The notes beneath the pieces were generated by a model. The model made no database searches, was not told the origin of the DNA, and worked only from the letters and a program-made list of their open reading frames with translations. Source: Escherichia phage JLBYU60. From it: a stretch of DNA of 44,804 nt. Shown here piece after piece: positions 11,074 to 44,804 of this stretch; position 1 is the stretch's first letter, and the number at the start of each line of letters is the position of its first letter. Position numbers and translations under genes: made by a program. The stretch lies in sequence record NC_073052.1. One strand, given 5' to 3'.

Positions 11074-11103
11074 TTTGGTCGCTTAAATAGCGGGTGTTAA
11101 TAT

Positions 11104-11127
11104 GGGGCCAGTACGGCCCCTTTTTTA
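11104..11127 (+). terminator. Rho-independent terminator after major tail protein gene
   Basis: GGGGCC-agtac-GGCCCC followed by TTTTTT. Confidence 0.8.
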
Positions 11128-12203: not shown

Positions 12204-14846
12204 ATGGCAGATCAGGCAGCAGGCATCACGCTAAAGGCTGATGTTGCACAAATCAGAACGGCAAATACTGTGCTGGACTCCTTCGCACAGAAATCCGAGA
12301 ACACAGAAAACAAGGTTAAGAAATTAAACGACACCCTCGGCAAATCCAAAAAGGTGACGAGTGACGCCGCGGGCGGAATGGAAAAGCTGGCAAACGAATC
12401 GCAGCGCGCCGCCGATGGCATGACGAAACAGGAGCGACTCGCCAACAGGTTAGGCATGTCGACTAAAAACCTGGGCTTTGCCTCGCGTAACGCCGCATTC
12501 CAGTTACAGGATATCGCAGTTACGCTTGAGATGGGTATGCCGGTACACCGCGTTATGCTTCAGCAGTTACCGCAGCTAACCGGCGCATTTGGCGGACTAG
12601 GTAACACTCTGCGTTATGTTGCTGGCTTCCTCGGTCCAGTTGGGATCGGCCTTGCTGCGGTAACGGCAACGTTAGGCGTGGGCGTAGCAATTACGTCCCG
12701 AGCAGAGAACCAGGTAGCGGCGCTTAATAAGACGCTGGCACTTTCCGGTAACATTTCCGGCCTGACGGCAAACCAGATCCTGGTGCTATCCGAGAACGCC
12801 GAGCGCATGGGCGGGTCATTCCGCAAGACGCGTGACACAATCCAGGCGCTGGCGGCGGCGGGTGTGAAAGCTGGTGGTGACTTCGGCGCATTGGCTAAGG
12901 TAGTTAATGACTTTGCGAAGGTGTCCAGCCAGCCGATCGAGGATGTGGTAGCGGCGGTGGCGAAGCTGTCAACCGACCCCGTTGGCGGACTGCGTGCGCT
13001 GGCGGATAAGTATCACGTCGTAAACGAAGCGCAGATCCAGCAGGTACAGTCGCTCGTTGATGCGGGTCGTGAGACAGACGCAGTTGCGCTGGCTAACAAA
13101 ACAGCCGCTGCGTCGTTCACCAGCATGACCAATGAGATCAAGGAGAACATGGGTACGCTTGAGCGATCTATGAACGTCGTCACATCGGCAGCCAAATCAA
13201 TGTGGGATGCCATCCTGGATGTGGGCCGCGCGCAGTCCTCCAATGAATCCGAGATGAAAGCGCGCGAATCACTGCAGCGGCTGACCACGGCTTACTATGC
13301 CGAGATGAAAGCGGTAAACGCTGCCGGTGGGGTAATGACTGAAGCGCAGAAAGCACGTATTAACATGCTTTACAGCGAACTGGTCGCCCAGGAAAAAGTG
13401 GTGGCGTCGCTCACCCTGCGTAACCGTGCTGAGCGAGACAACGCCCGCGCCGCAGACGAATCCGCAAAGGCGAACGAGGAGGCCAACCGCACTGCCCGTG
13501 ACCGCGCCGCGTTCGAGAAGGAATACGCCACCAACGCTAAGAAGCGCGCCGACGAGATCGCCCGCCTCAATTTGCTGAATAAGCGCGGCGTTATTGATGA
13601 GAAAGAACTAGCCGAGGCGGTGAAGCAGGTAAACGAGCGGTACAAAGACCCAGCCCCGAAAAAGGCCGCGGCTGTTCGCGTGGATGCCGGTATGAAAATG
13701 CTGGAAGTCGCACGGAGCGAACTGGCCCAGCTTCGAGAATCCGGCAAGCAGATCGAAGCCAACGCGTCTACGCAGACCCGCACGCAACGCGCTCAAGCGG
13801 CCTTAAACAAGCTGATCGCCGACAATGAGCAGTTAATCGCTGCGAGCAAAGAAAGAGCGCTAACGGCAGCAGAAAAGCAGCAATTAGTCGAGTTCGGGCG
13901 CGTGAAGGAAGTCCGCGAGCAGATCGTCGAAGAAGCCAAATTGCTGGATGCGAAAGAGCAGCAGGTTAAGGCGCACGCGCAGATCGATGCCTTCGTTAAG
14001 AACCAGAACGCCGAACTAAAAGCCACCGCGGCGGGCTATGCGCTTTCCACTCGCGAAGCGGCTAACCTGCGCGAAGAATTACAGCTGATTGACCGCCTTA
14101 AGCGCGTTGGTGCTAACGATACCGATATTGACCTGGCGGTGTCTAAGCTGCGCGAAGTGCAGGAAGCACAGACCGGTGCTAACGCCTCGCTATGGGATGG
14201 CTTCAGCCGCGGGCTTAAGGATAGCGTGGATGAAATGGGTAACGGCTATACGCAGATGGCGTCACTCACAAAATTCACGTTCGGCGCTATGCAGGACACG
14301 ATGAACGAGTTTTTCGAGACTGGCAAGCTGAACGCAAAGGATATGGTTAAGTCCATCCTGAGCGAATTAATCAAGCTGGCTACCTCGCAGGCGTTCAAGT
14401 CCATCGTTAGCGCTTTCGGTGGTGACGGCGGCAAAAACGGATTGTTCGGCGCTATCTTTTCCGGCCTCACTAAGAATGCGGACGGCGGAGCGTACGCAGG
14501 GGGCAATCTCGCGGCCTATTCGGGGAAGGTGGTAAGCCAGCCAACCTTTTTCAGTTATGGCGTCCAGGCGTTCGCTAAGGGCGCAGGATTGATGGGCGAG
14601 GCTGGTCCAGAGGCCATCATGCCGCTGAAGCGCGGGCCGGACGGGAAACTGGGCGTTGCCGCGTCTGGCGCAGGCGGTGGTATGGTCGTGACGACTAACG
14701 TTTACACGGGGACCGGTAAAACGGATACCAGTGTCAGCGGGCCGGATCCCCGTACCGCGCAGGCGTTCGGCAAGCAAATCACCGAGGCGGTGAAGGCCGA
14801 GATCGTGAAGGCGACGAAACCGGGTGGTGTACTTTACAAACGATGA
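12204..14846 (+). CDS. Tail tape measure protein
   Basis: 880 aa, long A/Q/E/K-rich coiled-coil central region, glycine-rich C-terminal part; RBS AAGGGGA; lies between chaperone and minor tail genes. Confidence 0.85.
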   Translation: MADQAAGITLKADVAQIRTANTVLDSFAQKSENTENKVKKLNDTLGKSKKVTSDAAGGMEKLANESQRAADGMTKQERLANRLGMSTKNLGFASRNAAFQLQDIAVTLEMGMPVHRVMLQQLPQLTGAFGGLGNTLRYVAGFLGPVGIGLAAVTATLGVGVAITSRAENQVAALNKTLALSGNISGLTANQILVLSENAERMGGSFRKTRDTIQALAAAGVKAGGDFGALAKVVNDFAKVSSQPIEDVVAAVAKLSTDPVGGLRALADKYHVVNEAQIQQVQSLVDAGRETDAVALANKTAAASFTSMTNEIKENMGTLERSMNVVTSAAKSMWDAILDVGRAQSSNESEMKARESLQRLTTAYYAEMKAVNAAGGVMTEAQKARINMLYSELVAQEKVVASLTLRNRAERDNARAADESAKANEEANRTARDRAAFEKEYATNAKKRADEIARLNLLNKRGVIDEKELAEAVKQVNERYKDPAPKKAAAVRVDAGMKMLEVARSELAQLRESGKQIEANASTQTRTQRAQAALNKLIADNEQLIAASKERALTAAEKQQLVEFGRVKEVREQIVEEAKLLDAKEQQVKAHAQIDAFVKNQNAELKATAAGYALSTREAANLREELQLIDRLKRVGANDTDIDLAVSKLREVQEAQTGANASLWDGFSRGLKDSVDEMGNGYTQMASLTKFTFGAMQDTMNEFFETGKLNAKDMVKSILSELIKLATSQAFKSIVSAFGGDGGKNGLFGAIFSGLTKNADGGAYAGGNLAAYSGKVVSQPTFFSYGVQAFAKGAGLMGEAGPEAIMPLKRGPDGKLGVAASGAGGGMVVTTNVYTGTGKTDTSVSGPDPRTAQAFGKQITEAVKAEIVKATKPGGVLYKR

Positions 14847-14880
14847 TAAAATGGCCCTCACTACAACGTGGGGGCTTTTT

Positions 14881-15480
14881 ATGTCACAAGGTACAATCAC
14901 ACTAACGAAAGGAAGTAAGACCGTCACGGGCGCGGGAACGGCGTTCCTTAGCGAGATCGGGAAGGTACTCGTATTCGCCCGCATCGACGGCAACGACTAC
15001 ACCGGCAAAATTGCGGCATTCAACTCGAACACGGTCATTACTCTGAAAGATAACTGGGCTGGGCCAACGAAATCCGGTGCGACATATGAGCTAATCGAAG
15101 CACACGACCCGCGATCAAACGAATGGCCCTATTACTGGCACATGCAATTGCAGGGCGGTGGCGACGTGCAGTTAGCTTTCCGGTCGGAGGAATTGCAATT
15201 CGGTAATGGCTACGGACAGAACATCGCGGACGGCCCGAACGCCGAAACGAAACAGTTCCCCGTGCAATTCGTCGGGCTGACTACGGACAAGTGGTGCAAC
15301 CCTAAACTGGTTTACAACTTCCTTCGCGGGCACTTCGTCAAGCCGTTTGTCGTCACCGCGCCGGATGGCGAAACAGGTTTATTCGTGGTCGAGCGTTCGA
15401 GCTTGTCGTACACGGACAACGGACACCTCACGGCAACCGTATCCGCCACCCTTAAGACTGCTATTGGATTCGTAAGATGA
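14881..15480 (+). CDS. Minor tail protein (lambda gpM-like C-terminal domain)
   Basis: 199 aa; C-terminal FGNGYGQ...FVKPFVVTAPDGETG resembles lambda M (FGDGYSQ...); N-terminal ~25 aa resemble the N-terminus of the tail fibre at 22364. Confidence 0.65.
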   Translation: MSQGTITLTKGSKTVTGAGTAFLSEIGKVLVFARIDGNDYTGKIAAFNSNTVITLKDNWAGPTKSGATYELIEAHDPRSNEWPYYWHMQLQGGGDVQLAFRSEELQFGNGYGQNIADGPNAETKQFPVQFVGLTTDKWCNPKLVYNFLRGHFVKPFVVTAPDGETGLFVVERSSLSYTDNGHLTATVSATLKTAIGFVR

Positions 15481-20600: not shown

Positions 20601-21032
20601 AGCGCCACGTACAGTCTTAAGGCTGGCGTGACGTATAACGGGACTTACTATGACGCCGGTATGCAGCTTTCAGTTGTTACGTCAGGCAACGCAGTTAAAT
20701 CTCGTATCGCGTTCAAAGCCGACCAGTTCTATATCATGCACCCGTCAAATGGGTCGCTTTCGTCCGCGTTTATCGTTGACGGCGGGCAGGTGTATATTGA
20801 CACGGCACGCATCAAGGACGCGTCAATCAACTTTGCACAGATCACGGACACGCTGCAATCGAATAACTACGACGGCAGTACGCGTGGTTGGCGCTTAGGG
20901 AAAGACGGAACGTTTATCAACCTGGGGACTGGAAGCGGCGGCGGGATGAAACAGACGAACACAAGAATCAGCGTGAAGGACGGAAACGGCGTTCTCCGCG
21001 TGCAGATTGGTGAGCTTACTGGTAGCTGGTAG
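17613..21032 (+). CDS. Central tail fibre / host specificity protein (lambda gpJ-like)
   Basis: 1140 aa from ATG 17613 (overlaps gpI-like stop, ATGA); long stretch YSGDWDGTFKRAWTDNPAWHWYDICITERFGLGRRI...YQIAQRCDQLVSDGNGG closely parallels lambda J (YSGIWDGTFK...MAWCLWDML...GQYCDQSVPDGFGG), as recalled from memory. Confidence 0.9.
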   Translation: MTIIYDVTGHKGGGGKQHTPQETPDSLHSLAKIRILLALGEGEFESITSASELRQRVYLDGTPIQNADLSENFPGARVEFRPGTQHQDVIHGFSAVESEQSVGVKLENGTPWVRQINDTSLDAVRIRIGIPALYTNEDNGDLVGGRIDYKIVVYTDNADPREFRFAAVGKTMSLYERDHRIELPSNVNTGWRVEVHRITADSTSAKVVNDIRVQSITEIIDARLRYPLTALLFVEFDAKAFQNIPRVSIKCKGRKVLIPNNYDPINHTYSGDWDGTFKRAWTDNPAWHWYDICITERFGLGRRIKPQMLNRYALYQIAQRCDQLVSDGNGGREIRFKNDMYIQSQTDAWTVLKDLAAIFAGMTWWGNQMLNIVSDQPVAAVSHTITNASVIDGRFDYASGSQKTRYSTFAVAYGNPKNHYEDAIATGQRVELVRRHKINRLDITAIGCTRESEAQRRGHWALISNQLDQQVSFKVGMEGLFFIPGSVVAIADTNISGGFETRGGRLLTDPGTRTVLNTDSEITFRPGDKFLVRTDSGNVETREIASVNGNKVTLKTALDADPIPDQPFCVDGDDIQLQKFRITDLEYDDSTSTFSVRGIEYNDSKYDAVDNGARLDPGIFTQVPDGVMKGPESVTITPSQISSQGQLITNVDIVFPPVKDAVVYEIQWRRTSLQNMEIQWGNDWVNIPRTASNGAHIPNVFSGNYQARVRAIGMGEISSPWVSSAITPVEGRLGGLNAPIITNAISGLHQILWKWNHNNAATDISYTELEVRKTGETEWKFLTNVPYPGAEYAQTSLEFGIYQQLRARVADKIGNLSDWSAPFEGQVSDKVDEYMKGLDDEFLTSEDGKRFQEAINTIPQGIYEAMLTDAQQLFNARAEYKGIYAEISVAYNVAADAHKAVAQLETLIGTRLDDAEAAIHTLQTAQSTQEQAFAQYQQTVAAKFGEQEAAIQQVQTATADVAGALAEYKTQVATQFGQQSAAIEQKMTSSFNHAGGSATYSLKAGVTYNGTYYDAGMQLSVVTSGNAVKSRIAFKADQFYIMHPSNGSLSSAFIVDGGQVYIDTARIKDASINFAQITDTLQSNNYDGSTRGWRLGKDGTFINLGTGSGGGMKQTNTRISVKDGNGVLRVQIGELTGSW

Positions 21033-21035
21033 TAT

Positions 21036-21056
21036 GGGGGCTTCGGCCCCTTTTTA
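21036..21056 (+). terminator. Rho-independent terminator after gpJ-like gene
   Basis: GGGGC-ttcg-GCCCC followed by TTTTT. Confidence 0.75.
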
Positions 21057-29670: not shown

Positions 29671-29676
29671 TATTAA

Positions 29677-33333: not shown

Positions 33334-34113
33334 TTAACGGCGGCGACGTTTACGTGGCGCTTCGTCTTCGTCGTCGTCCTCATCTTCGTCATCGCGTGGC
33401 TTACGCCGTTTGCGAGGTTTTTCATCTTCCTCATCGTCGTCGTCATCGCGGCGCTTGGATTTCTTGGACTTGCGCGGCTTGTCATCTTCATCATCGTCAT
33501 CACGACGTTTTGACTTTTTGGACTTGCGCGGTGCTTCGTCTTCGTCGTTGTCCAGGTCTTCATCGGAGCAAGACGACCCGCCACCTCCGAAGGCTTCGCC
33601 GTCTTCACGGAATCGCAGACCCAGCAAGCCAGCCCCGAGACCCTTGCCGTTGGTATTGTTCCACGCCCAAATATCCAGGGACACATTGCAATAACAACCG
33701 GAGTAGATCTCCTGGCCTTCGATCTCGTCGCCTTCTACGGTCAGACCTTGTTCCGTCTGCTTCTCGCCAAGTGACGTTTGAATGATCGGCTGTTTGAACG
33801 ATTTGGCGTTGATGTACAACATGCCTTCGAATTCTTCGGTTACTTCGTCGCGCTCGTCACCGTCGCGAACTGCGCATTCCTTAGAATCCTGGGCGTAGTG
33901 GCGGTCCATCCACTTATCGGCATTCTTCTCGGATTTCAGCTTATCGGTGAGCACTGCGCGCGCTGCCGCTTCCACTTTGTCCACCTGCGGATCTTCTTTA
34001 TCCAGAAGAATAACGGCACGGTATGCCGGTTTTTGACCATCCTGTTTAGGGGTATCACGTTCCCAAATTTTAAGGAAGCATACGCGCACATTTTTCAGGT
34101 TGACTTTAGCCAT
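33334..34113 (-). CDS. Putative ssDNA-binding protein (DUF2815/gp2.5-like) with charged C-terminal repeats
   Basis: 259 aa from ATG 34113 (MAKVNLKNVRV) with RBS GAGGAA; adjacent to a DUF2800-like exonuclease; C-terminus has tandem K/R-rich and D/E-rich blocks (DEAPRKSKKSKRRDDDDEDDKPRKSKKSKRRDDDDDEED...). Confidence 0.45.
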   Translation of the reverse strand: MAKVNLKNVRVCFLKIWERDTPKQDGQKPAYRAVILLDKEDPQVDKVEAAARAVLTDKLKSEKNADKWMDRHYAQDSKECAVRDGDERDEVTEEFEGMLYINAKSFKQPIIQTSLGEKQTEQGLTVEGDEIEGQEIYSGCYCNVSLDIWAWNNTNGKGLGAGLLGLRFREDGEAFGGGGSSCSDEDLDNDEDEAPRKSKKSKRRDDDDEDDKPRKSKKSKRRDDDDDEEDEKPRKRRKPRDDEDEDDDEDEAPRKRRRR

Positions 34114-34203
34114 TTTCCAATTCCTCATTTTCACATGTATCGGGGTTATTGGAGGCCACCCCGTTCGGCTTGGTTGCCAATTTACTTGGTTGCGCTTAAG
34201 CGG

Positions 34204-34446
34204 TCAAGCATTTTCATTAAAAAGATTTCTGGTCACGTAGTTGGTAGCGTTCTCGATCCAGCTTAACGGCGGGCGGTCGATGTTCTTCTCCACCCAATCG
34301 ACGGCAACTTCGCTATAGCCGTCATCCAGCCAGCGGGTCGGATGGCGAATCATCCACGCCACCATTAACACGCCTTGCACGCAATGCAGGATAAAGCCCA
34401 GCGCTCCGAGCAAAAACATCAATAAGATTGCGAATACTTTATTCAT
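34204..34446 (-). CDS. Small membrane protein
   Basis: 80 aa with two predicted TM helices (FAILLMFLLGALGFILHCV; VLMVAWMI); stop overlaps region of TTGGTTGC motifs. Confidence 0.5.
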   Translation of the reverse strand: MNKVFAILLMFLLGALGFILHCVQGVLMVAWMIRHPTRWLDDGYSEVAVDWVEKNIDRPPLSWIENATNYVTRNLFNENA

Positions 34447-35869: not shown

Positions 35870-36057
35870 TATTCCACCCTTGAAAATTGAGCAATGTAAT
35901 AATCGTGTTCAACATTGGCCCGCTTCGCGGCATTGTTCATGGTAGCCGCCAGTCCTCGAGCTTGCATCCAGCAGCAATTCCAGTTTTGATTCATAACGAT
36001 TTCTGGTTGCTCGTCGCCGGTAATACGGCAACGAAATAAAACAAAGAATATAGCCAT
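35869..36057 (-). CDS. Small hypothetical protein
   Basis: 62-aa ORF with ATG 36057 abutting the upstream gene stop; end overlaps exonuclease start by 1 nt; no motifs. Confidence 0.35.
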   Translation of the reverse strand: MAIFFVLFRCRITGDEQPEIVMNQNWNCCWMQARGLAATMNNAAKRANVEHDYYIAQFSRVE

Positions 36058-36309
36058 TTATTTTGTCTCCCAGCGGTCAATTGTTTTTGCTTCGGATGCA
36101 ACTGCGAAGCGAACATATTCCAGATTGGAATCAGCCCAAATATAAAAGTCTGGATTAATAAAGGTGGTGCGCTTAATTTGCGCGGGAGTATTGCGGCGTT
36201 TATCTATTACGGCAACGCGTGACTGAAAGTTGCCGATGCGTTCGAATAGCCAATAATAAGGGCGTTGGTCGCGTGAATCCACCGCCTCGATTAGCGTGAA
36301 GCGTGCCAT
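36058..36309 (-). CDS. Hypothetical protein
   Basis: 83 aa with RBS GAGGA; preceded by a terminator-like hairpin. Confidence 0.5.
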   Translation of the reverse strand: MARFTLIEAVDSRDQRPYYWLFERIGNFQSRVAVIDKRRNTPAQIKRTTFINPDFYIWADSNLEYVRFAVASEAKTIDRWETK

Positions 36310-36321
36310 TGTCTCGTCCTC

Positions 36322-36350
36322 TAAAAAGAGGCCCGCAGATTAGCAGGCCG
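36322..36350 (-). terminator. Terminator-like hairpin on minus strand
   Basis: Minus strand reads GGCCTGC-taatct-GCGGGCC (one mismatch) then TCTTTTT; downstream of stop at 36358. Confidence 0.45.
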
Positions 36351-36357
36351 GAATACA

Positions 36358-36873
36358 TTAATCTTCCAGTTCGAAATAGGTTTCGACGATTTCTTTTAGC
36401 TCTGTGTGGAAGTCTTCGACGTCGTCATCTTCCAGCTTGGCGATTGATTTGATCTCGAACGATTCCAGCAGGTCGTCGAATTCGTCGTTCGCATCGTCGT
36501 CGTCACCACCGGCAATAATCGCGGCATACTGTTTGATCTCGTCGCGCATCTCTGCCAGCGGATCGGCATCTTTCTTGCCTTTGCCTTTTGCCGGTGCTTT
36601 TTTAGACTTAGCCGGTTTTTCATCTTCGGCATCGTCGTCGTCATCTTCTACGACTTCTTTTTTGGCCTTACCCTTCGCCGGTGCTTTTTTAGCTTTAGCC
36701 GGTTTTTCGTCTTCGGCGTCATCGTCGCCATCTTCGACAACTTCTTTTTTGGCCTTAGACGGCTTCTTGTCTTCCTGCTTACCAACGGCAGCGCCAACGG
36801 TTTCATAATGCTTTGCAATGGTCTCCAGTGCTACTACGCCGCGAGTGATCAGGTTTACGATTTGCTCAAACAT
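36358..36873 (-). CDS. Hypothetical protein with tandem lysine-rich/acidic repeats
   Basis: 171 aa from ATG 36873 (MFEQIVNL) with RBS GGAGATA; central duplicated ~31-aa unit (KPAKAKKAPAKGKAKKEVVEDDDDDAEDE) and acidic C-terminus; the six-frame ORF extension to 37053 lacks a credible start. Confidence 0.55.
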   Translation of the reverse strand: MFEQIVNLITRGVVALETIAKHYETVGAAVGKQEDKKPSKAKKEVVEDGDDDAEDEKPAKAKKAPAKGKAKKEVVEDDDDDAEDEKPAKSKKAPAKGKGKKDADPLAEMRDEIKQYAAIIAGGDDDDANDEFDDLLESFEIKSIAKLEDDDVEDFHTELKEIVETYFELED

Positions 36874-37110
36874 GGTATATCTCCGATTGGTTAAGTTTAG
36901 GTGTCGGCAGTTAACTTCGTCGGTGGCCTTAACATATTGCCAGGTTACGCGTTCTCCCGTTCGGGTAGTGGACCTGGTTATATAATCACGGTTGGGAATC
37001 CTGACACTTCGATCCGGCCCCTGCGGTGCCCCTCTCCAGTTTGCGTCCTGCATCCTGTCGACGGAGTGAATGATAGATTGGTTGCAGGATGGGTGTCAAC
37101 AACTAATTTC

Positions 37111-37274: not shown

Positions 37275-37604
37275 ATGAATATCAAAGAAGCAATTGAAGT
37301 GTTATCTAATGCTATCCGCGGCGAGGCGGGTAAATCCTGGTATTACACAAATGCGGTGGATACTCTGTTATTTGAAGTGTCCAGGTTATCGCGTGCTGAG
37401 AAGGAGCTTACCGCCAAACTGGAATTACTGAATGGAACGGCAGCAAGCAAGCTGCAAAAACACAATGAAGAAATGGAAGAATACAAAAAGCAGGTTATCC
37501 GTTTGCGCGCCGAGGGCAAATCTTGGGCGATGATTGCCGAGTTGACCGGAATTAATCAGAGCACAGTGCGCTCCTGGGTACGCAATAATAAAACTTCTAA
37601 GTAA
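37275..37604 (+). CDS. HTH DNA-binding protein (putative early transcriptional regulator)
   Basis: 109 aa with RBS AGGAGA; C-terminal HTH-like segment SWAMIAELTGINQSTVRSWVRNN; first + strand gene after a 400-bp divergent intergenic region with sigma70-like promoter. Confidence 0.6.
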   Translation: MNIKEAIEVLSNAIRGEAGKSWYYTNAVDTLLFEVSRLSRAEKELTAKLELLNGTAASKLQKHNEEMEEYKKQVIRLRAEGKSWAMIAELTGINQSTVRSWVRNNKTSK

Positions 37605-37614
37605 GGCCACGGCA

Positions 37615-39879
37615 ATGAGCTTGATTAAATTCGCTGTAACAAAACCCGCTAAAAAAGGCGAAAAAGCCAGGGCGGAAAACTTCCAGATGACGACCGATGA
37701 GTTTTTCGAATTTATCAAAGATGCGAAAGAAATCTCCTCGGTGCATATCAACAAGACGGAAGATAAAGCCGAGTATGCGCGCCGCAAGCGTAAGGCCGAT
37801 GGCATCGTGGCGTATACCAGTGACGGATTGCGTCGTAAGACCAGTGCGGTGGACCGTTCGATCCTGTTCTTTGATATTGACCGCACCGACACCCGCACCC
37901 TGCGCCGCTGCCGCAAGGCGTTCATCGACGCGGGTCTGGAACACGTATTTCACACCACAACCGGCGACCGCCACCCGCTGAAAGGAGGCACGCGTTGCGC
38001 TCGTTTCCTGGTGCTCACCGATAAGCCTGTACCTGCTGAAGACCTGGGCCGCGTCCAGTATGCACTATTACACCAACTGGGCCTGTCAGATGTGGACTTC
38101 GATGATTGCACGAAAGACACAAACCGCCTTATGTACCTGCCTCACCAGCAATCGGTTGTTAAGTGTCACTACGGCAAACGTGCCCGCGTCCGTCGTCTGC
38201 TGCGCCTGGCGGATAAGCTGGGAGTGGAAAAAGAGGAAGTACGCCGCGAACTAACCCAGGGCGATGACGGCGTGGCGGACGGCATTCTGGATTGGTGCTT
38301 CCAGGCCGGATTCGAACCGCTGTCGTCCGGTCGTGGTTATGAAGTGCCATGCCCGAACGAACATCTGCATAGTGGCGAAGGGTCCACCGCTATCATGGTT
38401 AAGGATGGCGAGATCCGTTTCAAGTGTATGCACACCGGCAACGAGTGCTGTTCCGAACTGAACAGACACCAGCACCTGGCGCTACGTCTTATCGGGATCC
38501 CGGACCACCTGAACGTCGAACCGCACAACATGTCACGTAAGCAAATCGCCGCCATCCTTCCGGGACTGGACGACGAGGAGGTCGAATCGTGCTATGAACA
38601 TATCGTTGATGCGGTCGGTGACGGCGACGAGTACGGCGGATGTACGGACGCAGACCTGGACAACGAGCCGGTTGCACTGTTCAGTAAGCACGACCCGATC
38701 ATAGAAGGTCTGATTAACTTCAAATCGACCTGGTATATGGCTGGCGAGTCGAACATCGGTAAATCGTTCTACGTGCTGGGCCAAATGGGTGCGGTTGCCG
38801 CGGGGATTCCGTTCGGCGGCGCGAAGGTCGTCCAGTCCCATTGCTTCTATTTCGACGCGGAAGGTGGCGAAGCCTCTAACCAGCGCAAAGAAGCATTGCA
38901 GATTAAATATGAGCACGACCTGGACAAGCTGCACATTATCGATCTGCAATCACGCGGCTGGGATATCACCAGCAAATCCGGCTTGCGTGAAGTTATCAGC
39001 TTCATCAACCGCACCGCTAACGGCGAACCGGTTGGCCTGGTGGCGTTCGACTCACTCAACCAGACTGTTGCGTTGCGGTCCGCGGATGCTAAACCGTTCG
39101 ACGAGAACAACGCCAGCGATATGGGTGAAGTGGTCAAAGCGCTGAAGGCCATCGCGGAAAATACAGGTGGCAGTGCGGGCGTCATCCACCACCCGGCGAA
39201 GGGTGCAAACGGCAGCAGAACCCCCCGCGGGTCCGGCGCGCTGCATGGCGCTGTCGATTCTGCGTTCTTCCTGGAACAGCCGGACGACAACCAGCCAGGC
39301 CAATTGAACCTGTATCACGAAAAGGCACGTAACGGCATCAAGCAAGCGCCGCGTGGCTTCGTCCTGCTCAAGTGCAAGGTGAAGGTGGATCTCCGCAAGT
39401 CAGAAGCGTTCGAAGCCCACCAGTCCACCAGCACCGGGCCGGACTTCGGCGATGTGGTCGCCGGTTGGGACGTCAAGCCGATCGCATCAACGCCACGCGA
39501 CGAGACTCTTTACCTCGTACCGGTCGCCCTGGCACCGTTCGCCATTGAGCAGGCAAAGGCCGCTGGCAAGGCCGCAGTTAAGGAAGAGAACGCCGCAGGA
39601 CCGCGCAACGAAAAAGAGAAAGTGCTTTATGCAGCGCTGGAAAAACTGATGGAAGATAACCCGGACCATACCGGATTCAGCAAATCGGCAATTGTCCGCC
39701 AGGCTGGGCTTGCGAAAGGTGGCACATCGACGAAGGCAATCGACGATATGGTCGAGCGCGGCGTACTCGGTTTTTACACAGATCCGCACACCGGGGCCAT
39801 CTATGGGTCGTCGAATATCGTCATCAAAACGAATATACCCATCACGCTTTCGGCGACCGATGATGATTTAAAAGATTAA
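37615..39879 (+). CDS. Primase-helicase (replication initiation protein with RecA-like AAA_25-type ATPase domain)
   Basis: 754 aa; N-terminal region with LFFDIDRTD acidic motif and Cys/His zinc-binding segment CPNEHLHSGEG...FKCMHTGNEC; central Walker A GESNIGKS and Walker B-like LVAFDSLNQ. Confidence 0.7.
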   Translation: MSLIKFAVTKPAKKGEKARAENFQMTTDEFFEFIKDAKEISSVHINKTEDKAEYARRKRKADGIVAYTSDGLRRKTSAVDRSILFFDIDRTDTRTLRRCRKAFIDAGLEHVFHTTTGDRHPLKGGTRCARFLVLTDKPVPAEDLGRVQYALLHQLGLSDVDFDDCTKDTNRLMYLPHQQSVVKCHYGKRARVRRLLRLADKLGVEKEEVRRELTQGDDGVADGILDWCFQAGFEPLSSGRGYEVPCPNEHLHSGEGSTAIMVKDGEIRFKCMHTGNECCSELNRHQHLALRLIGIPDHLNVEPHNMSRKQIAAILPGLDDEEVESCYEHIVDAVGDGDEYGGCTDADLDNEPVALFSKHDPIIEGLINFKSTWYMAGESNIGKSFYVLGQMGAVAAGIPFGGAKVVQSHCFYFDAEGGEASNQRKEALQIKYEHDLDKLHIIDLQSRGWDITSKSGLREVISFINRTANGEPVGLVAFDSLNQTVALRSADAKPFDENNASDMGEVVKALKAIAENTGGSAGVIHHPAKGANGSRTPRGSGALHGAVDSAFFLEQPDDNQPGQLNLYHEKARNGIKQAPRGFVLLKCKVKVDLRKSEAFEAHQSTSTGPDFGDVVAGWDVKPIASTPRDETLYLVPVALAPFAIEQAKAAGKAAVKEENAAGPRNEKEKVLYAALEKLMEDNPDHTGFSKSAIVRQAGLAKGGTSTKAIDDMVERGVLGFYTDPHTGAIYGSSNIVIKTNIPITLSATDDDLKD

Positions 39880-39954
39880 ATTTTGCGCGCATTGGTTGCC
39901 GATATGGGAATTCCCATATCGCTAAAAGGTTAAATTTTGCGCGCATTGGTTGCC
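39876..39954. repeat. 25-bp perfect direct repeats flanking a 20-bp perfect palindrome
   Basis: TTAAATTTTGCGCGCATTGGTTGCC at 39876-39900 and 39930-39954; palindrome GATATGGGAATTCCCATATC at 39901-39920; first repeat overlaps the primase-helicase stop codon. Confidence 0.85.
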
Positions 39955-40015
39955 ATTTTGAGTGTTTTTATCAGGTCGTATTGGTTGCCGTGTAGTGTGA
40001 ATATAGTGAATAGTT

Positions 40016-40201
40016 ATGCAGTTTTACTGCATAAACCAAACGGGACAGAAAGCGGGACAAACAAGGGGCGGGACAAAGCGGGACAGCACCCCCGTCCCGC
40101 CCCGGATGGCGCGGCCTGGAGAGGAGCGGGACAGCGGGACAGCACCCCAGTCTTTCAGACTAGACGGGGGTCAGCGGCCCCCCTCGTCTGAGACTGAATA
40201 A
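40016..40201. repeat. Dispersed direct repeat, copy B (CGGGACA iterons plus long imperfect hairpin)
   Basis: Same orientation and length as copy A, 28,061 bp downstream; central ~45 bp diverged; located in the non-coding hub after the primase-helicase gene. Confidence 0.8.
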
Positions 40202-40350
40202 AATCCGAGGATTGCAAAATACACGGCAGCATGATGCGAAGGGCGGTCGTCGATGAACCAGGCAACCAATGCGGGTTGCATTATGCTGAGTGAAAAATGC
40301 AGTTTGCAGTCACAGCAGATAGCGATCAACTTTTTCATGCGCGTGATTAA

Positions 40351-40393
40351 TATTGGTTGCACCCTGCCTGGCGCCCTGCTATATTGGTTGCAC
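40351..40393 (+). promoter_or_regulatory. Putative sigma70-like promoter with duplicated TATTGGTTGCAC elements
   Basis: -35 TTGCAC (40357-40362), 17-bp spacer, -10 TATATT (40380-40385) preceded by TG-like extension; second TTGGTTGCACACCAA copy spans the predicted start site; gene starts at 40414. Confidence 0.5.
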
Positions 40394-40413
40394 ACCAACA
40401 AGAGGACTGAACG

Positions 40414-40719
40414 ATGAAAGTATTAATCTGGAATTACACAATGGCAGTGGCGAAGCTGTACGAAGCGAAACACACAAACGGCAACGCAGACGACGCGCGC
40501 CAGGTTGTCATCCTGGCCCAGCAGGGAATCATGAACGCGTTCGACGATATGTTTGCCAGCCTGGACGAACTGGAACCGCTGCGCGTGGCGATCTGCGAAT
40601 ATGCGATGGCATTTGCCCGTGAACGCCTGGCGTATCGCTTCGGGATCGGCGAGACGGCAGTGACAAACGTCGCCCGGATTAAAGCCCAGCGTGAGCTATT
40701 CGCCCAGCTTGCGAAATAA
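40414..40719 (+). CDS. Hypothetical protein
   Basis: 101-aa ORF with RBS AAGAGGA, directly downstream of a sigma70-like promoter (TTGCAC-17-TATATT). Confidence 0.5.
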   Translation: MKVLIWNYTMAVAKLYEAKHTNGNADDARQVVILAQQGIMNAFDDMFASLDELEPLRVAICEYAMAFARERLAYRFGIGETAVTNVARIKAQRELFAQLAK

Positions 40720-40728
40720 GAGGCCAAA

Positions 40729-41160
40729 ATGACCCGTAGACGCGCAAAACAGCTTTCGTGGCATATTCCCCTGCATTGCATACGAATATGGGCTAAGAAT
40801 GCGAATGTGGGGGATTCTGTATTCTGGTGTTATCGCGACGACGTAAAGCCACTGACGCAGACTCGCTACTTGCACCTGTTCGCAGCAAAGCACGGATTCC
40901 AGGTGCGGACTTCCTTGCAACCAATGGGGATCCGTATTACATTACGCCGAAAGCCCGCCATTGAGCGGGTAGGCAAACACTGGAGACTGAGCAAAATGAA
41001 CAAGCAACCTGAACGCTGGCGGAGTAAGGCCACGCGACTGACTTACTTCGTGACAGAAGAAGCAAACGGCAACGTGACTATTTCACACCCTAAGTGTGGT
41101 ACTCGCCGCACTATCTCGCGCCTCACATTAGTTCGTAACTACAGGAGATTGACAGAATGA
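40729..41160 (+). CDS. Hypothetical basic protein
   Basis: 143-aa ORF, arginine-rich; RBS-like GAGG upstream; no motifs. Confidence 0.5.
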   Translation: MTRRRAKQLSWHIPLHCIRIWAKNANVGDSVFWCYRDDVKPLTQTRYLHLFAAKHGFQVRTSLQPMGIRITLRRKPAIERVGKHWRLSKMNKQPERWRSKATRLTYFVTEEANGNVTISHPKCGTRRTISRLTLVRNYRRLTE

Positions 41161-41558
41161 AAATGATATTCCGCAATAAGCATAATGGGCGATTCCTTAC
41201 CCCGATCGAAGTGCTGCCGAACTATGTGCGCATGTACCATGAAGCCAGCGACCGCGTATTCTGGTACAAGAAAGCCACCCTGCATGAGCATTTGCAGGTA
41301 GTGCACCACGACGTACGAGTAGGTGATGTGCTGCGTTGTGATGGCAATGACTACACTTGGGTCGTGAAGTCAGTCGGGACGGAATGGATTACTATCGACA
41401 GCACTCTGGTGGCAGGCGCGACTATTAACCCCGCCACCCTGGTGAATTACACCCGCGTAGGCCGGAACTACACACCTAAGCGCCCTGGCGTCGTGGCGAA
41501 AGCGATCACCCGTACGGAGCACCCATATACCAAATACGACGAGAGCAAGGTGCGCTAG
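41157..41558 (+). CDS. Hypothetical protein
   Basis: 133-aa ORF, start ATGA-overlaps the upstream stop; ends at TAG followed in-frame by ~50 further sense codons. Confidence 0.5.
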   Translation: MKMIFRNKHNGRFLTPIEVLPNYVRMYHEASDRVFWYKKATLHEHLQVVHHDVRVGDVLRCDGNDYTWVVKSVGTEWITIDSTLVAGATINPATLVNYTRVGRNYTPKRPGVVAKAITRTEHPYTKYDESKVR

Positions 41559-41983
41559 CATATCGACAACGCCCGGAAGGCCATTACCCAGCAATGCGAT
41601 GCAATGCGCATGGCTAATCTGGACGCAAAACGCCACGGAATCGGCGTGCTCCTGGTCTACCCCGACGGTAGCATGAAGTCCGTAAGCCCGTTGCGTGTGG
41701 TGCTGAAATGAATAAATTCGATTTAGTGCGGGATAAATTAACCCGCGATTTATACTTGGTGGTCGCCGTAACCCATTACCAGGTTAAACTACGTAATGTG
41801 GCTACTAAGCAAGCGCACTGGGCGCCACGCCATAACCCACATCTGGAGGTCGTATCCCGTGTCGGCTGTGATTCGTGATATGCTGATGCATAACCGCTTT
41901 GAGATAGGCGGTCGGGTATTTCGCAATTACTTCGTGGCGCGTGCATGGGCGCGCCATATTGGCAAACCGGAAGGGGCAATTCG

Positions 41984-42271
41984 ATGCTACACGATTTGAT
42001 TTATTGGTTTGGTTTTGGGTGCGCGACACTCTTTGCTACGGTGCTGGCGCTGTTGGTATGGGTATTCCTGATTTGGCCCGCGGTGGAAGCTGCCAGTATT
42101 ACCCGCATGACGTTCGAGGTCTACAAGCGCCGTGGAATAACGGAGCACCCGACCAGGCTTCGGATGTGGTGGCTGTGGTATCGGGATATGATAGGCGGTC
42201 GAACATTCGAAGCCGTCCGCTCATCCGGGTGGGAGTGGAAAGGCGTCGGCAAGTGGTCCGTTTTCGATTAA
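41984..42271 (+). CDS. Small membrane protein
   Basis: 95 aa from ATG 41984 (MLHDLIYWFGFGCATLFATVLALLVWVFLIW), one strong TM helix; followed by a strong terminator. Confidence 0.45.
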   Translation: MLHDLIYWFGFGCATLFATVLALLVWVFLIWPAVEAASITRMTFEVYKRRGITEHPTRLRMWWLWYRDMIGGRTFEAVRSSGWEWKGVGKWSVFD

Positions 42272-42288
42272 TTATGCAAGCGTGATAT

Positions 42289-42323
42289 AGTCCCAGTGAG
42301 CTAAAACTTACTGGGACTTTTTT
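42289..42323 (+). terminator. Rho-independent terminator immediately upstream of holin start
   Basis: Perfect 9-bp stem AGTCCCAGT / ACTGGGACT with 12-nt loop followed by TTTTT; holin ATG at 42324. Confidence 0.75.
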
Positions 42324-42614
42324 ATGGATAAGCTAAACGAGTGGTTATTCGCCCTTGCGTGTCTTGCTGGTGGCTTCGTCGGCGCACGCATTCACGGCGA
42401 GGCTACGAAAGGGCCGCTAAACTTCGTGTTATATATCGTAGTTGGCTTCCTGTGTGCCATCTTTGGTGCGCCAGCTATCGCCGAGTGGGCTGGCTTATCT
42501 GGCGAGCGCACTGTCGCCGGTTTGGGCTTCGTAACTGCAATCTTCTGGATGCCAATAGCCGCCCGGATCAGGGAGACTATTGAGTCGTTCCGACTTCCGG
42601 GGGGCGCAAAATGA
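42324..42614 (+). CDS. Putative holin
   Basis: 96 aa with three predicted TM segments; immediately upstream of a second small membrane protein and the endolysin. Confidence 0.55.
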   Translation: MDKLNEWLFALACLAGGFVGARIHGEATKGPLNFVLYIVVGFLCAIFGAPAIAEWAGLSGERTVAGLGFVTAIFWMPIAARIRETIESFRLPGGAK

Positions 42615-42856
42615 TTATCTCCGTCCTGTTGTTTGTTATCATAGGGGCTTCGTCCCTGTTTAACGTGTATGCGCCGTCCGTTCAGGATGGCTTCTTCGGT
42701 CGGGTGTTATATCTGCTTACGGCGATGGTCTGCATTATCGGACTGTTGCAAACCGGAGACGTATCTGACGCCACCTGGACCGCGTTAATCTGGTTGTTTG
42801 CATTGCGCACGCTGCGTAATGCTGTTCTAAATGGGGTAAAACATGCGATTCAGTGA
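42611..42856 (+). CDS. Putative second holin / antiholin
   Basis: 81 aa with 2-3 TM segments; start overlaps upstream stop (ATGA); precedes endolysin. Confidence 0.5.
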   Translation: MIISVLLFVIIGASSLFNVYAPSVQDGFFGRVLYLLTAMVCIIGLLQTGDVSDATWTALIWLFALRTLRNAVLNGVKHAIQ

Positions 42857-43334
42857 CAACGGTCTAAGATTTACGGCAGCATGGGAGCAATTCAGCCCAG
42901 TGCCGTATTTTGCGACTAAGAAAGAGCAGGCCCGCGGCCTGTATACCTGGGGCTATGGTCACACCGGCACTAATCCGCCGCGGAGCATTACCCGTGCGGA
43001 AGCACTGGAGCTACTCAAGCGCGACGTGGCGTATGCCGAGAACTGGGTAAACAAGTACGCACACCCGAGCATCAACCAGGCGCAATTCGACGCGCTGGTG
43101 GACCTGGTTATCAATGCCGGTCCTGGTCCGATCATGCCGGACGACGTCGCCGGAGACTTCGACGATGCGATCCGCCTGGGTGACTGGGCAAAGGTCCGTG
43201 CTACGCTGCCACAATTCCGCAAGCAAGGCGGGGCAGTGCTCAAGGGGCTTGTCCGTCGTGCAATCGGCAGGCAGGCACTATTTGATGGTAAGCAGTGGGA
43301 CGTTGCCGAGAAAATCGGGCGAAACGCCGCATAA
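42843..43334 (+). CDS. Endolysin (phage lysozyme, GH24-like)
   Basis: 163 aa; N-terminal catalytic region TAAWEQFSPVPYFATKKEQARGLYTWGYGHTG matching the Glu...Asp...Thr pattern of T4-type lysozymes. Confidence 0.8.
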   Translation: MRFSDNGLRFTAAWEQFSPVPYFATKKEQARGLYTWGYGHTGTNPPRSITRAEALELLKRDVAYAENWVNKYAHPSINQAQFDALVDLVINAGPGPIMPDDVAGDFDDAIRLGDWAKVRATLPQFRKQGGAVLKGLVRRAIGRQALFDGKQWDVAEKIGRNAA

Positions 43335-43512: not shown

Positions 43513-43519
43513 ACCACCA

Positions 43520-43546
43520 AGCCCGGAATTATCCGGGCTTTTTTAT
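43520..43546 (+). terminator. Rho-independent terminator
   Basis: AGCCCGGA-atta-TCCGGGCT followed by TTTTTT. Confidence 0.8.
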
Positions 43547-43607
43547 TTATTGCCCCAGTACCGTGGTATATTGCATCCAGGTCATCTCAATCTGGAAGTA
43601 AATTAAT

Positions 43608-44750: not shown

Positions 44751-44804
44751 CGGCAACCCATAAGCCTCCCAGCCTGCCGATTTGGTGGGCTTTTTTGTGC
44801 CTGT

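What the first reader, a model, noticed from the sequence alone, without database searches (positions are those of the whole stretch)
42289..42326. Holin start codon abuts a strong terminator hairpin that contains its only plausible RBS
A perfect 9-bp stem with T5 ends 1 nt before the holin ATG (42324); the only purine-rich RBS candidate (GGGA) lies inside the 3' arm of the stem. Holin translation may therefore depend on readthrough transcripts in which the hairpin is unfolded or processed, or on a promoter within the hairpin, giving a built-in brake on lysis timing.
Basis: inference. Interest (0 to 1): 0.5.

Follow-up and report, generated by a model that had tools for sequence, protein, structure and literature searches.

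The report
Promoter-in-terminator switch before phage holin
In this E. coli phage (a Dhillonvirus) the stop signal that ends the early genes also hides the ribosome landing site of the cell-bursting holin gene, and a conserved promoter-like sequence built into the same hairpin probably launches the only messages from which holin can be made, a compact variant of a trick first described for the phage T4 lysozyme gene.

Summary
A 12-bp hairpin (9 perfect pairs, about -19 kcal/mol, the most stable terminator-like hairpin in the genome) plus a T6 run ends directly at the holin ATG (42324). The only Shine-Dalgarno candidate (GGGA, 42313-42316) lies in the 3' arm. The window is a complete Dhillonvirus genome.

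It predicts a start near 42298, so these transcripts would lack the 5' arm. The computed cost of opening the ribosome site falls from 17.5 kcal/mol in read-through RNA to 2.0.

The element was unchanged in every Dhillonvirus sequence examined. Kagunavirus, whose holin is about 47% identical, has the same layout with different sequence: TGnTATCCT overlaps an anti-SD arm, the 3' arm is GGAGGA, and there is no T-run. Three other terminators in this genome also carry TGnTAnnnT abutting the stem.

Best reading (about 0.55): an early-operon terminator fused to a promoter, giving transcript-specific holin translation as in T4 gene e. No transcript data exist, so the promoter is inferred. It is a new variant of a known kind, of moderate interest.

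The parts
41945..42271 (+). Last gene of the upstream (early, left-end) operon. It encodes a 108-aa membrane protein of unknown function. Its stop codon lies 17 nt before the hairpin.
   Evidence: phrog_2531, E = 1e-36. Annotated as a hypothetical protein in relatives.
42283..42291 (+). Extended -10 promoter element TGATATAGT (TG at -15/-14, hexamer TATAGT). There is no good -35. The last three bases (AGT) are also the first three bases of the hairpin's 5' arm.
   Evidence: It is the only TGnTATAVT in the genome. It is unchanged in all Dhillonvirus holin-upstream sequences examined, and Kagunavirus has TG[G/C]TATCCT at the same place. The same motif class is conserved at 7 intergenic sites even in the most divergent Dhillonvirus. 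Promoter function is inferred, not shown.
42289..42300 (+). 5' arm of the hairpin (AGTCCCAGTGAG). It doubles as the promoter's discriminator and initially melted region.
42297..42299 (+). Predicted transcription start, 6-8 nt after the -10 hexamer, at G42298 or A42299. RNA starting here lacks the 5' arm.
   Evidence: Inferred from standard sigma-70 geometry. The folding consequences were computed.
42301..42306 (+). Hairpin loop (CTAAAA). This is the only part of the element that varies freely among relatives.
42307..42318 (+). 3' arm of the hairpin (CTTACTGGGACT). It contains the holin Shine-Dalgarno GGGA at 42313-42316.
   Evidence: The Kagunavirus 3' arm at the same distance from the homologous start codon is CTGGAGGAT, a canonical SD.
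42318..42323 (+). T6 tract. It serves as the U-tract of the intrinsic terminator and also as the SD-to-AUG spacer.
   Evidence: Relatives have T5 to T7.
42324..42614 (+). Holin gene (96 aa, 3 predicted transmembrane segments). It is the first gene of the lysis unit.
   Evidence: phrog_2359 holin, E = 1e-31. Annotated as holin in relatives.
42611..43334 (+). Second holin-like gene (42611-42856) and endolysin (42843-43334). They overlap the preceding genes, so they are co-transcribed and coupled with the holin.
   Evidence: phrog_2508 holin; phrog_7 and Pfam Phage_lysozyme.
43519..43540 (+). Terminator that closes the lysis unit. The next extended -10 (TGGTATATT, 43564-43572) follows 23 nt later.
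40357..40385 (+). Likely early promoter feeding the operon that the hairpin terminates: TTGCAC, 17-nt spacer containing TG, then TATATT. It lies 44-72 nt inside the left genome end as deposited for phage WF5505.
   Evidence: Conserved in Ioannina. Its function is inferred.
14844..14883 (+). Sister module: TGATAAAAT abuts hairpin 14853-14876, followed by T4 and then the ATG (14881) of the minor tail gene. The SD-like G-run lies in the 3' arm.
   Evidence: Caveat: the TGA and TAA are stop codons of the tape-measure gene, and a terminating ribosome could reach this hairpin.
11095..11126 (+). Sister module: TGTTAATAT abuts terminator 11104-11120 plus T6. Here the SD lies downstream of the T-run.
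   Evidence: Conserved in Oekolampad and Ioannina.
21027..21055 (+). Sister module: TGGTAGTAT abuts terminator 21036-21051 plus T4. Here the SD lies downstream of the T-run.
   Evidence: Caveat: the TAG is the stop codon of the tail-tip gene.

Best explanation
The element is one compact composite of three signals.

(1) It is a Rho-independent terminator that ends the early operon running rightwards from the left genome end (about 40357 to 42271).

(2) It is a translational lock. Any RNA that reads through carries both arms, so the holin Shine-Dalgarno and the bases up to 1 nt before the AUG are buried in a hairpin of about -19 kcal/mol.

(3) It holds a sigma-70 extended -10 promoter without a -35. 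The hexamer overlaps the foot of the 5' arm, so RNA polymerase should start at about 42298. That is the far end of the 5' arm.

These promoter-proximal transcripts cannot form the hairpin. They are therefore neither terminated nor translationally blocked, and they would be the mRNAs for the holin, the second holin and the endolysin.

This is the logic of T4 gene e (lysozyme). It is implemented here with a host-type promoter, and the inhibitory hairpin is also a terminator.

Shown: the structure, its position, its conservation and the thermodynamic contrast between the two transcript forms. Inferred: that the -10 fires, where it starts, and that the hairpin terminates in vivo.
For: Anatomy.

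The extended -10 TGATATAGT overlaps the 5' arm.

Conservation: I collected 122 holin-upstream sequences, 35 of them distinct. Every Dhillonvirus one has TGATATAGT. Every Kagunavirus one has TG[G/C]TATCCT overlapping a 5' arm ATCCTCCAG (an anti-SD sequence). The Kagunavirus 3' arm CTGGAGGAT is a perfect SD placed 5 nt before the homologous start codon, and there is no T-run. The positions shared by the two genera are TG, T-12, A-11, T-10 and T-7. Positions -9 and -8 differ and pair with the 3' arm in each genus.

Opening energy: the computed cost of opening the initiation region (-13 to +6) is 17.5 kcal/mol in read-through RNA against 2.0 from the predicted start. The sister module at 14881 gives 20.6 against 5.2, Ioannina 22.6 against about 6, and K1G 13.4 against 8.8.

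Motif behaviour: this motif class behaves like the phage's promoters. In Oekolampad, 6 of 12 extended -10 matches fall in the 6.6% of the genome that is intergenic. All 6 point at a gene start (binomial 5e-5). The seven intergenic sites are kept in Ioannina even where the flanks have diverged completely.

Link to terminators: 4 of 8 plus-strand terminator hairpins have TGnTAnnnT ending at -1 to +2 of the stem start, and 2 more have one 10-23 nt downstream. The one at the end of the plus-strand block has none. None of 8 minus-strand hairpins has it, and none of 14 in K1G (Fisher P = 0.003).

The SD lies inside the 3' arm at only two of these four terminators.

The invariant G:U pair argues for an RNA structure rather than a DNA palindrome.

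Precedent: T4 e, soc, 49 and I-TevI (PMC3014915).
Against: No transcript 5' or 3' ends are available for any Dhillonvirus or Kagunavirus in the searched literature.

The promoter has no recognisable -35, and the tool's sigma-70 scan did not call it.

The hexamer has G at -8. The Kagunavirus hexamer TATCCT matches the consensus at only 4 of 6 positions, and part of it is forced by the anti-SD arm.

Within-genus variation is too small to give statistical covariation. No pair changes on both sides, and shuffles do as well.

At two of the sister modules, part of the motif is supplied by stop codons.

In K1G the short transcript still folds around the SD (8.8 kcal/mol), so the contrast there is modest.

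If the promoter were constitutive, holin would be made from the start of infection. The timing logic is therefore incomplete.
Confidence: 0.55

Rival explanations
1. Terminator only. The hairpin is simply the early-operon terminator, and TGATATAGT is not a working promoter. Holin is made at a low level from the minority of read-through transcripts when the hairpin breathes. This weak, delayed translation sets the lysis time. It is the first reader's main reading.
For: The terminator features are canonical and one GenBank record annotates it as a terminator. There is no -35 and the sigma-70 scan made no call. In lambda, an SD-occluding stem-loop is known to tune holin and antiholin initiation.
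Against: It would need both read-through of the strongest terminator in the genome and about 17.5 kcal/mol to open the initiation region. That leaves no evident source of mRNA for holin, the second holin and the endolysin. It does not explain conservation of TG, T-12, A-11 and T-7 across two genera. It also does not explain the recurrence of TGnTAnnnT at the foot of other terminators.
Confidence: 0.2
2. Translational switch opened by processing or by ribosomes. The hairpin mainly sequesters the SD. It is opened by an endonuclease cut in the loop or 5' arm, or by ribosomes finishing the upstream gene (translational coupling). The T-run is secondary.
For: Kagunavirus keeps the SD-sequestering hairpin without any T-run. 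At the sister site, one lineage (L135) has a broken T-run but keeps the hairpin. There the tape-measure stop codon lies only 6 nt from the hairpin, so a terminating ribosome could melt it.
Against: At the holin site the upstream stop codon is 17 nt from the stem in Dhillonvirus and more than 35 nt away in Kagunavirus. That is beyond a terminating ribosome's reach. A 12-bp stem is short for RNase III. No cleavage motif could be tested. The conserved extended -10 remains unexplained.
Confidence: 0.1
3. Lambda-like late antitermination. A weak promoter just upstream (AATTAT, 42270-42275) makes a short RNA of about 40 nt. TGATATAGT acts as a sigma-dependent pause element in the initially transcribed region. 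The hairpin is a tR'-like terminator that is read through only after a phage antiterminator loads.
For: The order '-10-like element, second -10-like element, terminator, holin' resembles lambda pR'-pause-tR'-S (own knowledge of lambda). An A/T-rich block ([T/A]TAATT) 14-15 nt upstream of the extended -10 is conserved across the two genera.
Against: No Q-family domain was found in 20 early and neighbouring proteins scanned against Pfam, and PHROGs, run on the first 10, gave no antiterminator. The upstream hexamer has neither TG nor a -35. An antiterminated transcript would still carry the SD-sequestering hairpin. Kagunavirus has no terminator to antiterminate.
Confidence: 0.05
4. DNA-level operator. 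The inverted repeat overlapping the -10 is the binding site of a dimeric phage repressor that controls the holin promoter. The RNA hairpin is incidental.
For: An inverted repeat overlaps a promoter-like -10. A small HTH protein is encoded at 37275-37604.
Against: The invariant G:U pair is a mismatch at the DNA level. Arm spacing ranges from 6-7 nt in Dhillonvirus to 25 nt in Kagunavirus, and the arm sequences differ between genera while pairing is kept. The T-run and the SD/anti-SD content are explained only at the RNA level.
Confidence: 0.04

Closest known systems
Phage T4 gene e (lysozyme), and likewise soc, 49 and I-TevI: transcript-specific translational control (McPheeters et al. 1986, as reviewed in PMC3014915)
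   Same: A lysis gene's ribosome-binding site is sequestered in a hairpin in transcripts coming from upstream early promoters. [quoted passage not shown] Its transcripts therefore lack that strand and are translated.
   Different: T4 uses gp55-dependent late promoters (TATAAATA). Here the element is a host sigma-70 extended -10. Here the hairpin also has a U-tract and should terminate the upstream transcripts, giving a double lock. The gene is a holin, not an endolysin. There is no sequence homology. The T4 case is experimentally shown and this one is predicted.
Lambda S gene upstream stem-loop (sdi), which controls ribosome access to the SD
   Same: A stem-loop immediately upstream of a holin start occludes a G-rich SD, so translation efficiency influences lysis timing.
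   Different: In lambda the structure partitions initiation between two start codons (antiholin S107 and holin S105) on one late transcript. Here there is a single start, a much stronger stem, a terminator U-tract and an embedded promoter.
Lambda pR'-tR' with Q antitermination upstream of the lysis cassette (own knowledge)
   Same: A terminator sits just upstream of the holin at the head of the late/lysis genes, next to -10-like elements.
   Different: No Q-like protein was detected. The predicted start lies inside the terminator, not upstream of it, so bypass needs no factor.
Coupled or overlapping promoters and terminators in bacteria (bioRxiv 10.64898/2026.08.19.745784; only the title and the start of the abstract were visible)
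   Same: Initiation and termination signals of adjacent transcription units are physically coupled.
   Different: I could not read the paper, so I cannot say whether it describes the specific geometry seen here: a -10 abutting the stem, a start inside the hairpin, and the SD in the 3' arm.
Ordinary compact terminators of this same genome (for example 29669-, 33315-, 36349-)
   Same: A GC-rich hairpin plus T-run lies within a few nucleotides of the next gene.
   Different: In those, the SD lies after the T-run and is free. Only at 42289 and 14853 is the SD inside the 3' arm, with the ATG right after the T-run.

Membership tests
Rho-independent (intrinsic) terminator | GC-rich stem-loop immediately followed by a U-tract, on the sense strand downstream of a stop codon | tested here: met
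   12-bp stem with 6 GC pairs, 6-nt loop and T6, 17 nt after the stop of gene 41945-42271. dG = -19.3 kcal/mol.
Rho-independent (intrinsic) terminator | Transcripts actually end in the U-tract | not testable with these tools
   No Term-seq or RNA-seq data are available. One GenBank record annotates it as a putative terminator by prediction only.
Sigma-70 extended -10 promoter | TG at -15/-14, one base, then a -10 hexamer with T-12, A-11 and T-7 | tested here: met
   TGATATAGT at 42283-42291, 5 of 6 matches to TATAAT.
Sigma-70 extended -10 promoter | Conservation of the key positions in relatives, beyond what the overlapping structure requires | tested here: met
   TG, T-12, A-11, T-10 and T-7 are invariant in 122 sequences from two genera. 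The N position and -9/-8 vary. The same motif class is conserved at 7 intergenic sites in Ioannina.
Sigma-70 extended -10 promoter | Recognisable -35 hexamer | tested here: not met
   The best candidate, TTCGAT, matches TTGACA at 2 of 6 positions at 17-nt spacing (read), and the tool's scan made no call. A -35 is not required for this promoter class (own knowledge).
Sigma-70 extended -10 promoter | A primary transcript 5' end 6-8 nt downstream | not testable with these tools
   No 5'-end data were found.
T4 gene e-type transcript-specific translational control | The SD and/or AUG are paired in long (upstream-initiated) transcripts | tested here: met
   The SD is in the 3' arm. Opening cost is 17.5 kcal/mol in read-through RNA.
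T4 gene e-type transcript-specific translational control | A promoter located so that its transcripts lack the 5' strand of the inhibitory helix | tested here: inconclusive
   The geometry fits: the start is predicted at 42297-42299, the distal end of the 5' arm, and opening cost falls to 2.0 kcal/mol. Promoter activity is only predicted.
T4 gene e-type transcript-specific translational control | T4-type late promoter (TATAAATA, gp55/gp33 dependent) | tested here: not met
   There is no TATAAATA at the site. The element is sigma-70-like. It therefore works like the T4 case but is not a member of that T4-specific system.
Lambda-type Q antitermination unit (pR'-qut-tR') | A Q-family antiterminator gene is encoded upstream | tested here: not met
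   No Q/antiterminator domain was found in 20 proteins scanned against Pfam, nor in the 10 of them also scanned against PHROGs. A novel antiterminator cannot be excluded.
Lambda-type Q antitermination unit (pR'-qut-tR') | A promoter upstream of the terminator, so the nascent RNA contains the terminator | tested here: not met
   The only good promoter element places the start inside the hairpin. The upstream hexamer AATTAT has neither TG nor a -35.
Holin (phrog_2359) | Profile match, small membrane protein, position in a lysis cassette | tested here: met
   E = 1e-31 to phrog_2359 'holin'. It is followed by phrog_2508 holin and a Phage_lysozyme endolysin. Hole-forming function has not been tested.

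The most novel reading that the evidence does not exclude
Dhillonviruses may build their late region from 'self-bypassing terminators'. In this design, extended -10 promoters without a -35 are welded to the foot of intrinsic terminator hairpins at four sites: 11095, 14844, 21027 and 42283. Each hairpin stops incoming polymerases. The promoter relaunches transcripts that begin inside the hairpin and so are immune to it.

At the holin gene, and at the gene after the tape measure, the same hairpin also hides the SD. Translation would then depend on which promoter made the RNA.

This could combine with two further effects. Early transcription ending on top of the promoter could occlude it. A small protein resembling sigma region 4 (37275-37604) could silence the -35-dependent early promoters, which carry ATTGGTTGCA boxes. 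Together these would give a factor-light early-to-late switch and lysis timer.
Probability: 0.3. Interest if true: 0.65.

Novelty: new variant of a known kind. Interest (0 to 1): 0.45.

Why it matters
Holin expression decides when a phage kills its host. Dhillonviruses and Kagunaviruses are common E. coli phages used in therapy collections, yet their gene regulation is unmapped.

If the model holds, about 40 nt encode a terminator, a promoter and a translational lock at once. That would explain how early transcripts are kept from triggering lysis without any dedicated regulator. It would extend the T4 gene e principle to host-type promoters and to holins. It would also give synthetic biology a very compact insulator part: it stops upstream transcription, restarts at a set level, and allows translation only from the restart.

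It also warns annotators that 'terminator directly before a start codon with no RBS' can hide a promoter.

Tried and rejected
- **Mini-ORF ATG-CAA-GCG-TGA (42274-42285) as a hairpin-opening leader peptide.** Rejected. It has no SD, one relative (L082) has ACG instead of ATG, and Kagunavirus has TGG or TGC instead of the TGA stop.
- **The overlapping 114-aa ORF 41941-42285, which ends at that TGA.** Judged spurious. The 108-aa frame is the one with a PHROG family.
- **Alternative downstream holin start.** None lies in frame before residue 34, and the N-terminus is conserved across genera.
- **Rfam.** Only a sub-threshold NsiR1 hit (29.3 bits against a gathering score of 39), which is a terminator look-alike.
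- **Formal covariation counts within Dhillonvirus.** The helices are kept (97.5-99% of cells paired, against 27-67% when slid). There are no double-sided changes, and shuffles do equally well, so this is not statistically informative.
- **Metagenome and IMG/VR searches for intermediate holin lineages.** They returned only the same two genera plus one MED16-like contig.
- **More distant holin relatives (Scapp, MED16).** Both have a terminator upstream, a -10-like hexamer at the foot of a weaker hairpin, and smaller opening-energy contrasts (8.8 against 5.1; 5.8 against 2.2). This points the same way but is weak.
- **-10/terminator adjacency in Kagunavirus K1G genome-wide.** Absent (0 of 14), so that design is specific to Dhillonvirus.
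- **Q-like antiterminator search.** Negative.
- **The promoter-terminator coupling preprint.** It could not be opened.
- **Literature search for Dhillonvirus or Kagunavirus transcript maps.** Nothing found.

Full report
**What the window is.** The 44,804-bp window is a complete genome, written as a circular permutation, of a Dhillonvirus. These are HK578-like lytic siphoviruses of E. coli. It is 97% identical to vB_EcoD_Opt212 over the region tested, and 155 related GenBank records exist.

Gene order follows Oekolampad and Ioannina:
- terminase and structural genes on the + strand (55 to about 24050);
- replication genes on the - strand (about 24076-37053);
- a + strand block with an HTH protein, a helicase and small early genes (37275-42271);
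- then holin, second holin, endolysin, a small ORF and a phosphoesterase-like gene, which runs back into the terminase genes.

**Checking the observation.** The sequence at 42289-42318 is AGTCCCAGTGAG-CTAAAA-CTTACTGGGACT. It forms nine perfect pairs, or twelve with one G:U. T6 follows at 42318-42323, and the holin ATG is at 42324.
- The hairpin alone folds at -19.3 kcal/mol. That is the most stable terminator-like hairpin I found in the genome.
- The 101-nt context has z = -4.2 against shuffles.
- GGGA (42313-42316) is the only purine run between the in-frame stop (42297-42299) and the ATG. It lies in the 3' arm.
- ATG 42324 is the only possible start. The N-terminus MDKL aligns with MDKF of Kagunavirus holins, which start at a TTG in the homologous position.
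- The protein matches phrog_2359 'holin'. It is followed by a second holin family and a Phage_lysozyme endolysin.

**What else is in the element.** Directly overlapping the foot of the 5' arm is TGATATAGT (42283-42291). This is an extended -10 promoter element: TG, one base, then TATAGT. It is the only TGnTATAVT in the genome.

With standard sigma-70 geometry the start would be at about 42298, the distal end of the 5' arm. Such an RNA cannot form the hairpin. I computed the free energy needed to make the initiation region (-13 to +6) single-stranded:

| Site | Read-through RNA (kcal/mol) | RNA from the predicted start (kcal/mol) |
|---|---|---|
| Window holin (42324) | 17.5 | 2.0 |
| Ioannina holin | 22.6 | about 6 |
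| Sister site (14881) | 20.6 | about 5 |
| K1G holin | 13.4 | 8.8 |

**Comparative evidence.** I collected 122 holin-upstream sequences (35 distinct) from GenBank, IMG/VR and metagenomes.
- Every Dhillonvirus sequence has TGATATAGT and the stem. Variation is confined to the loop, the length of the T-run (5-7), and a few spacer bases.
- The divergent Ioannina clade (holin about 70% identical) has an extra C in the 5' arm. It is matched by an A-to-G change in the 3' arm, so pairing and a G-rich SD are kept.
- Kagunaviruses (holin about 46-51% identical) have CGTG[G/C]TATCCTCCAG, a 25-nt loop, CTGGAGGAT, TCATC, then TTG.
- So in Kagunavirus an extended -10-like element overlaps a 5' arm that is an anti-SD sequence. 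The 3' arm is a canonical SD at the same distance from the start, and there is no T-run.
- The two genera share TG, T-12, A-11, T-10 and T-7. The 'n' position and -9/-8 differ, and -9/-8 pair with the 3' arm in each genus.

The conserved core is therefore a -10 overlapping the 5' arm of an SD-sequestering hairpin. The terminator U-tract is a Dhillonvirus addition. Within each genus the helices are too invariant for statistical covariation. The invariant G:U pair does argue for an RNA structure rather than a DNA palindrome.

**Genome-wide context.** Extended -10 motifs (TGnTAnnnT with at least 5 of 6 matches) behave like this phage's promoters.
- In Oekolampad, 6 of 12 lie in the 6.6% of the genome that is intergenic. 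All 6 point at a gene start within 130 nt (binomial 5e-5).
- The seven intergenic sites in the window are 12159, 14844, 22283, 40377, 42283, 43564 and 44802. The last spans the window ends.
- All seven are retained in Ioannina, even where the flanks are unrecognisable.

The motif is also tied to terminators.
- Of eight + strand terminator hairpins, four have TGnTAnnnT ending at -1 to +2 of the stem start (11095, 14844, 21027, 42283).
- Two more have one 10-23 nt downstream (43564, 44802).
- The one at the end of the + block (24051) has none.
- None of eight - strand hairpins has it, and none of 14 hairpins in Kagunavirus K1G (Fisher P = 0.003).
- Caveat: at 14844 and 21027 part of the motif is made of stop codons.

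Most terminators here are followed by a free SD and then a start within 10-15 nt. Only at 42289 and 14853 is the SD inside the 3' arm with the ATG directly after the T-run. Both of those have the abutting -10. At the 14853 site, one lineage has lost the T-run but keeps the hairpin and the -10, and three pairs show one-sided G:U/G:C changes.

**What feeds the terminator.** The record of phage WF5505 carries a perfect 2,026-bp direct terminal repeat. Its left end maps to window 40313 and its right end to about 42056. A canonical promoter (TTGCAC, 17 nt, TATATT with TG; 40357-40385) sits just inside that end. No other terminator-like hairpin was flagged on the + strand between 38000 and 42289. 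My scan lists one weak one at 41727 (-8.6 kcal/mol).

The hairpin therefore most likely ends the first-entering early operon, immediately before the lysis genes. That is where a double lock against premature holin synthesis makes sense. This step is inference.

**Mechanism proposed (confidence about 0.55).** Early transcripts terminate in the T-tract. Those that escape carry a buried SD and make no holin. Polymerases that bind the embedded extended -10 start inside the hairpin, escape both blocks, and produce the lysis mRNA.

This is the logic shown experimentally for T4 gene e, soc, 49 and I-TevI (PMC3014915). There are three differences here: a host-type promoter, a holin, and a hairpin that is also a terminator. 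It also recalls the SD-occluding stem-loop upstream of lambda S.

How the promoter is timed is open. One possibility is occlusion by early transcription that ends on top of it. Another is a shift away from -35-dependent promoters. A small protein with a sigma-70 region-4-like HTH (37275-37604) and the over-represented ATTGGTTGCA boxes are leads, not findings.

**Rivals.**
- *Terminator only, with leaky read-through translation (0.2).* It leaves the lysis genes without an evident mRNA source and leaves the conserved -10 unexplained.
- *Opening of the hairpin by processing or by upstream ribosomes (0.1).* It fits the Kagunavirus layout without a T-run and the 14853 site. At the holin, however, the upstream stop is 17 nt or more from the stem.
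- *Lambda-like Q antitermination (0.05).* It has no Q-like protein and no good upstream promoter.
- *DNA operator (0.04).* It conflicts with the G:U pair, with the variable arm spacing, and with the SD/anti-SD content.

**Novelty and limits.** I found no transcript mapping for these genera in the held literature. One GenBank record annotates the hairpin merely as a predicted terminator. A 2026 preprint on widespread promoter-terminator coupling exists, but I could not read it.

The finding is best filed as a new variant of a known kind: T4 e-type transcript-specific translation fused to an intrinsic terminator. The promoter activity, the start site and termination in vivo are all predictions. 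5'/3'-end mapping, and point mutations in the -10 bases outside the stem, would settle them.

Noticed in passing
window 11095-11126, 14844-14883, 21027-21055: Three more terminator hairpins have a TGnTAnnnT element ending exactly at the base before the stem (TGTTAATAT, TGATAAAAT, TGGTAGTAT). The one at 14853 also has its SD-like G-run in the 3' arm and the ATG right after the T-run. At 14844 and 21027, stop codons supply part of the motif.
   Followed up: partly
window 44802-44804 joined to 1-6: A perfect extended -10, TGTTATAAT, spans the window ends, 10 nt after terminator 44771-44791 and upstream of the small terminase gene. It is contiguous in Oekolampad. The window is therefore a whole genome cut inside a promoter.
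   Followed up: yes
window 40313 to about 42056 (from L016/L129, NC_073060.1): Phage WF5505 is deposited with a perfect 2,026-bp direct terminal repeat. It maps to this stretch of small early genes. Its right boundary falls inside the gene just upstream of the holin hairpin.
   Followed up: partly
window 39891, 39945, 39980, 40261(-), 40352, 40383, 37077, 26932/26949(-), 25268/25280, 6227/6241(-), 22338(-), 29906(-), 40916(-): The box ATTGGTTGC[A/C] occurs 16 times with at most one mismatch, against 3.1 expected. It clusters in intergenic regions, often in pairs. At 40352 it contains the -35 hexamer TTGCAC of a canonical promoter. It is probably an early-promoter box or a regulator binding site.
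   Followed up: no
window 37275-37604 (+): The first gene of the rightward early block encodes a 109-aa protein whose C-terminal HTH matches Sigma70_r4_2 (29.2 bits, above the cut-off) and HTH_23. It is a candidate regulator of the -35-like boxes.
   Followed up: no
window 40040-40150 and 11825-12036: There are six close repeats of GCGGGACA between the helicase gene and the putative left genome end. GGGAC/GTCCC palindromes also lie upstream of the tape-measure gene. They could be iterons, an origin or a packaging signal.
   Followed up: no
window about 4593-5060 (+): The spanin genes sit after the minor capsid gene, about 7 kb downstream of the holin-endolysin cassette across the genome junction (by comparison with the Oekolampad annotation). 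The lysis genes are therefore split between two transcription units.
   Followed up: no
L135 (IMG/VR 2706795331), positions homologous to window 14877-14880: In this lineage the T-run after the 14853-type hairpin is broken (ATCTTCT). The hairpin, the G-rich 3' arm and TGATAAAAT are kept. This suggests that termination is the dispensable function at that site.
   Followed up: partly
L075 and L096 (Kagunavirus holin hairpin): Two independent single changes hit the same base pair of the Kagunavirus stem. One is A-to-G in the 5' arm, giving G:U. The other is U-to-C in the 3' arm, giving A:C. They are the two halves of a possible compensatory change to G:C.
   Followed up: no
window 42273-42325 (+): A sub-threshold Rfam hit to the cyanobacterial sRNA NsiR1 (29.3 bits, gathering score 39). 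It most likely only reflects a terminator-like shape.
   Followed up: yes
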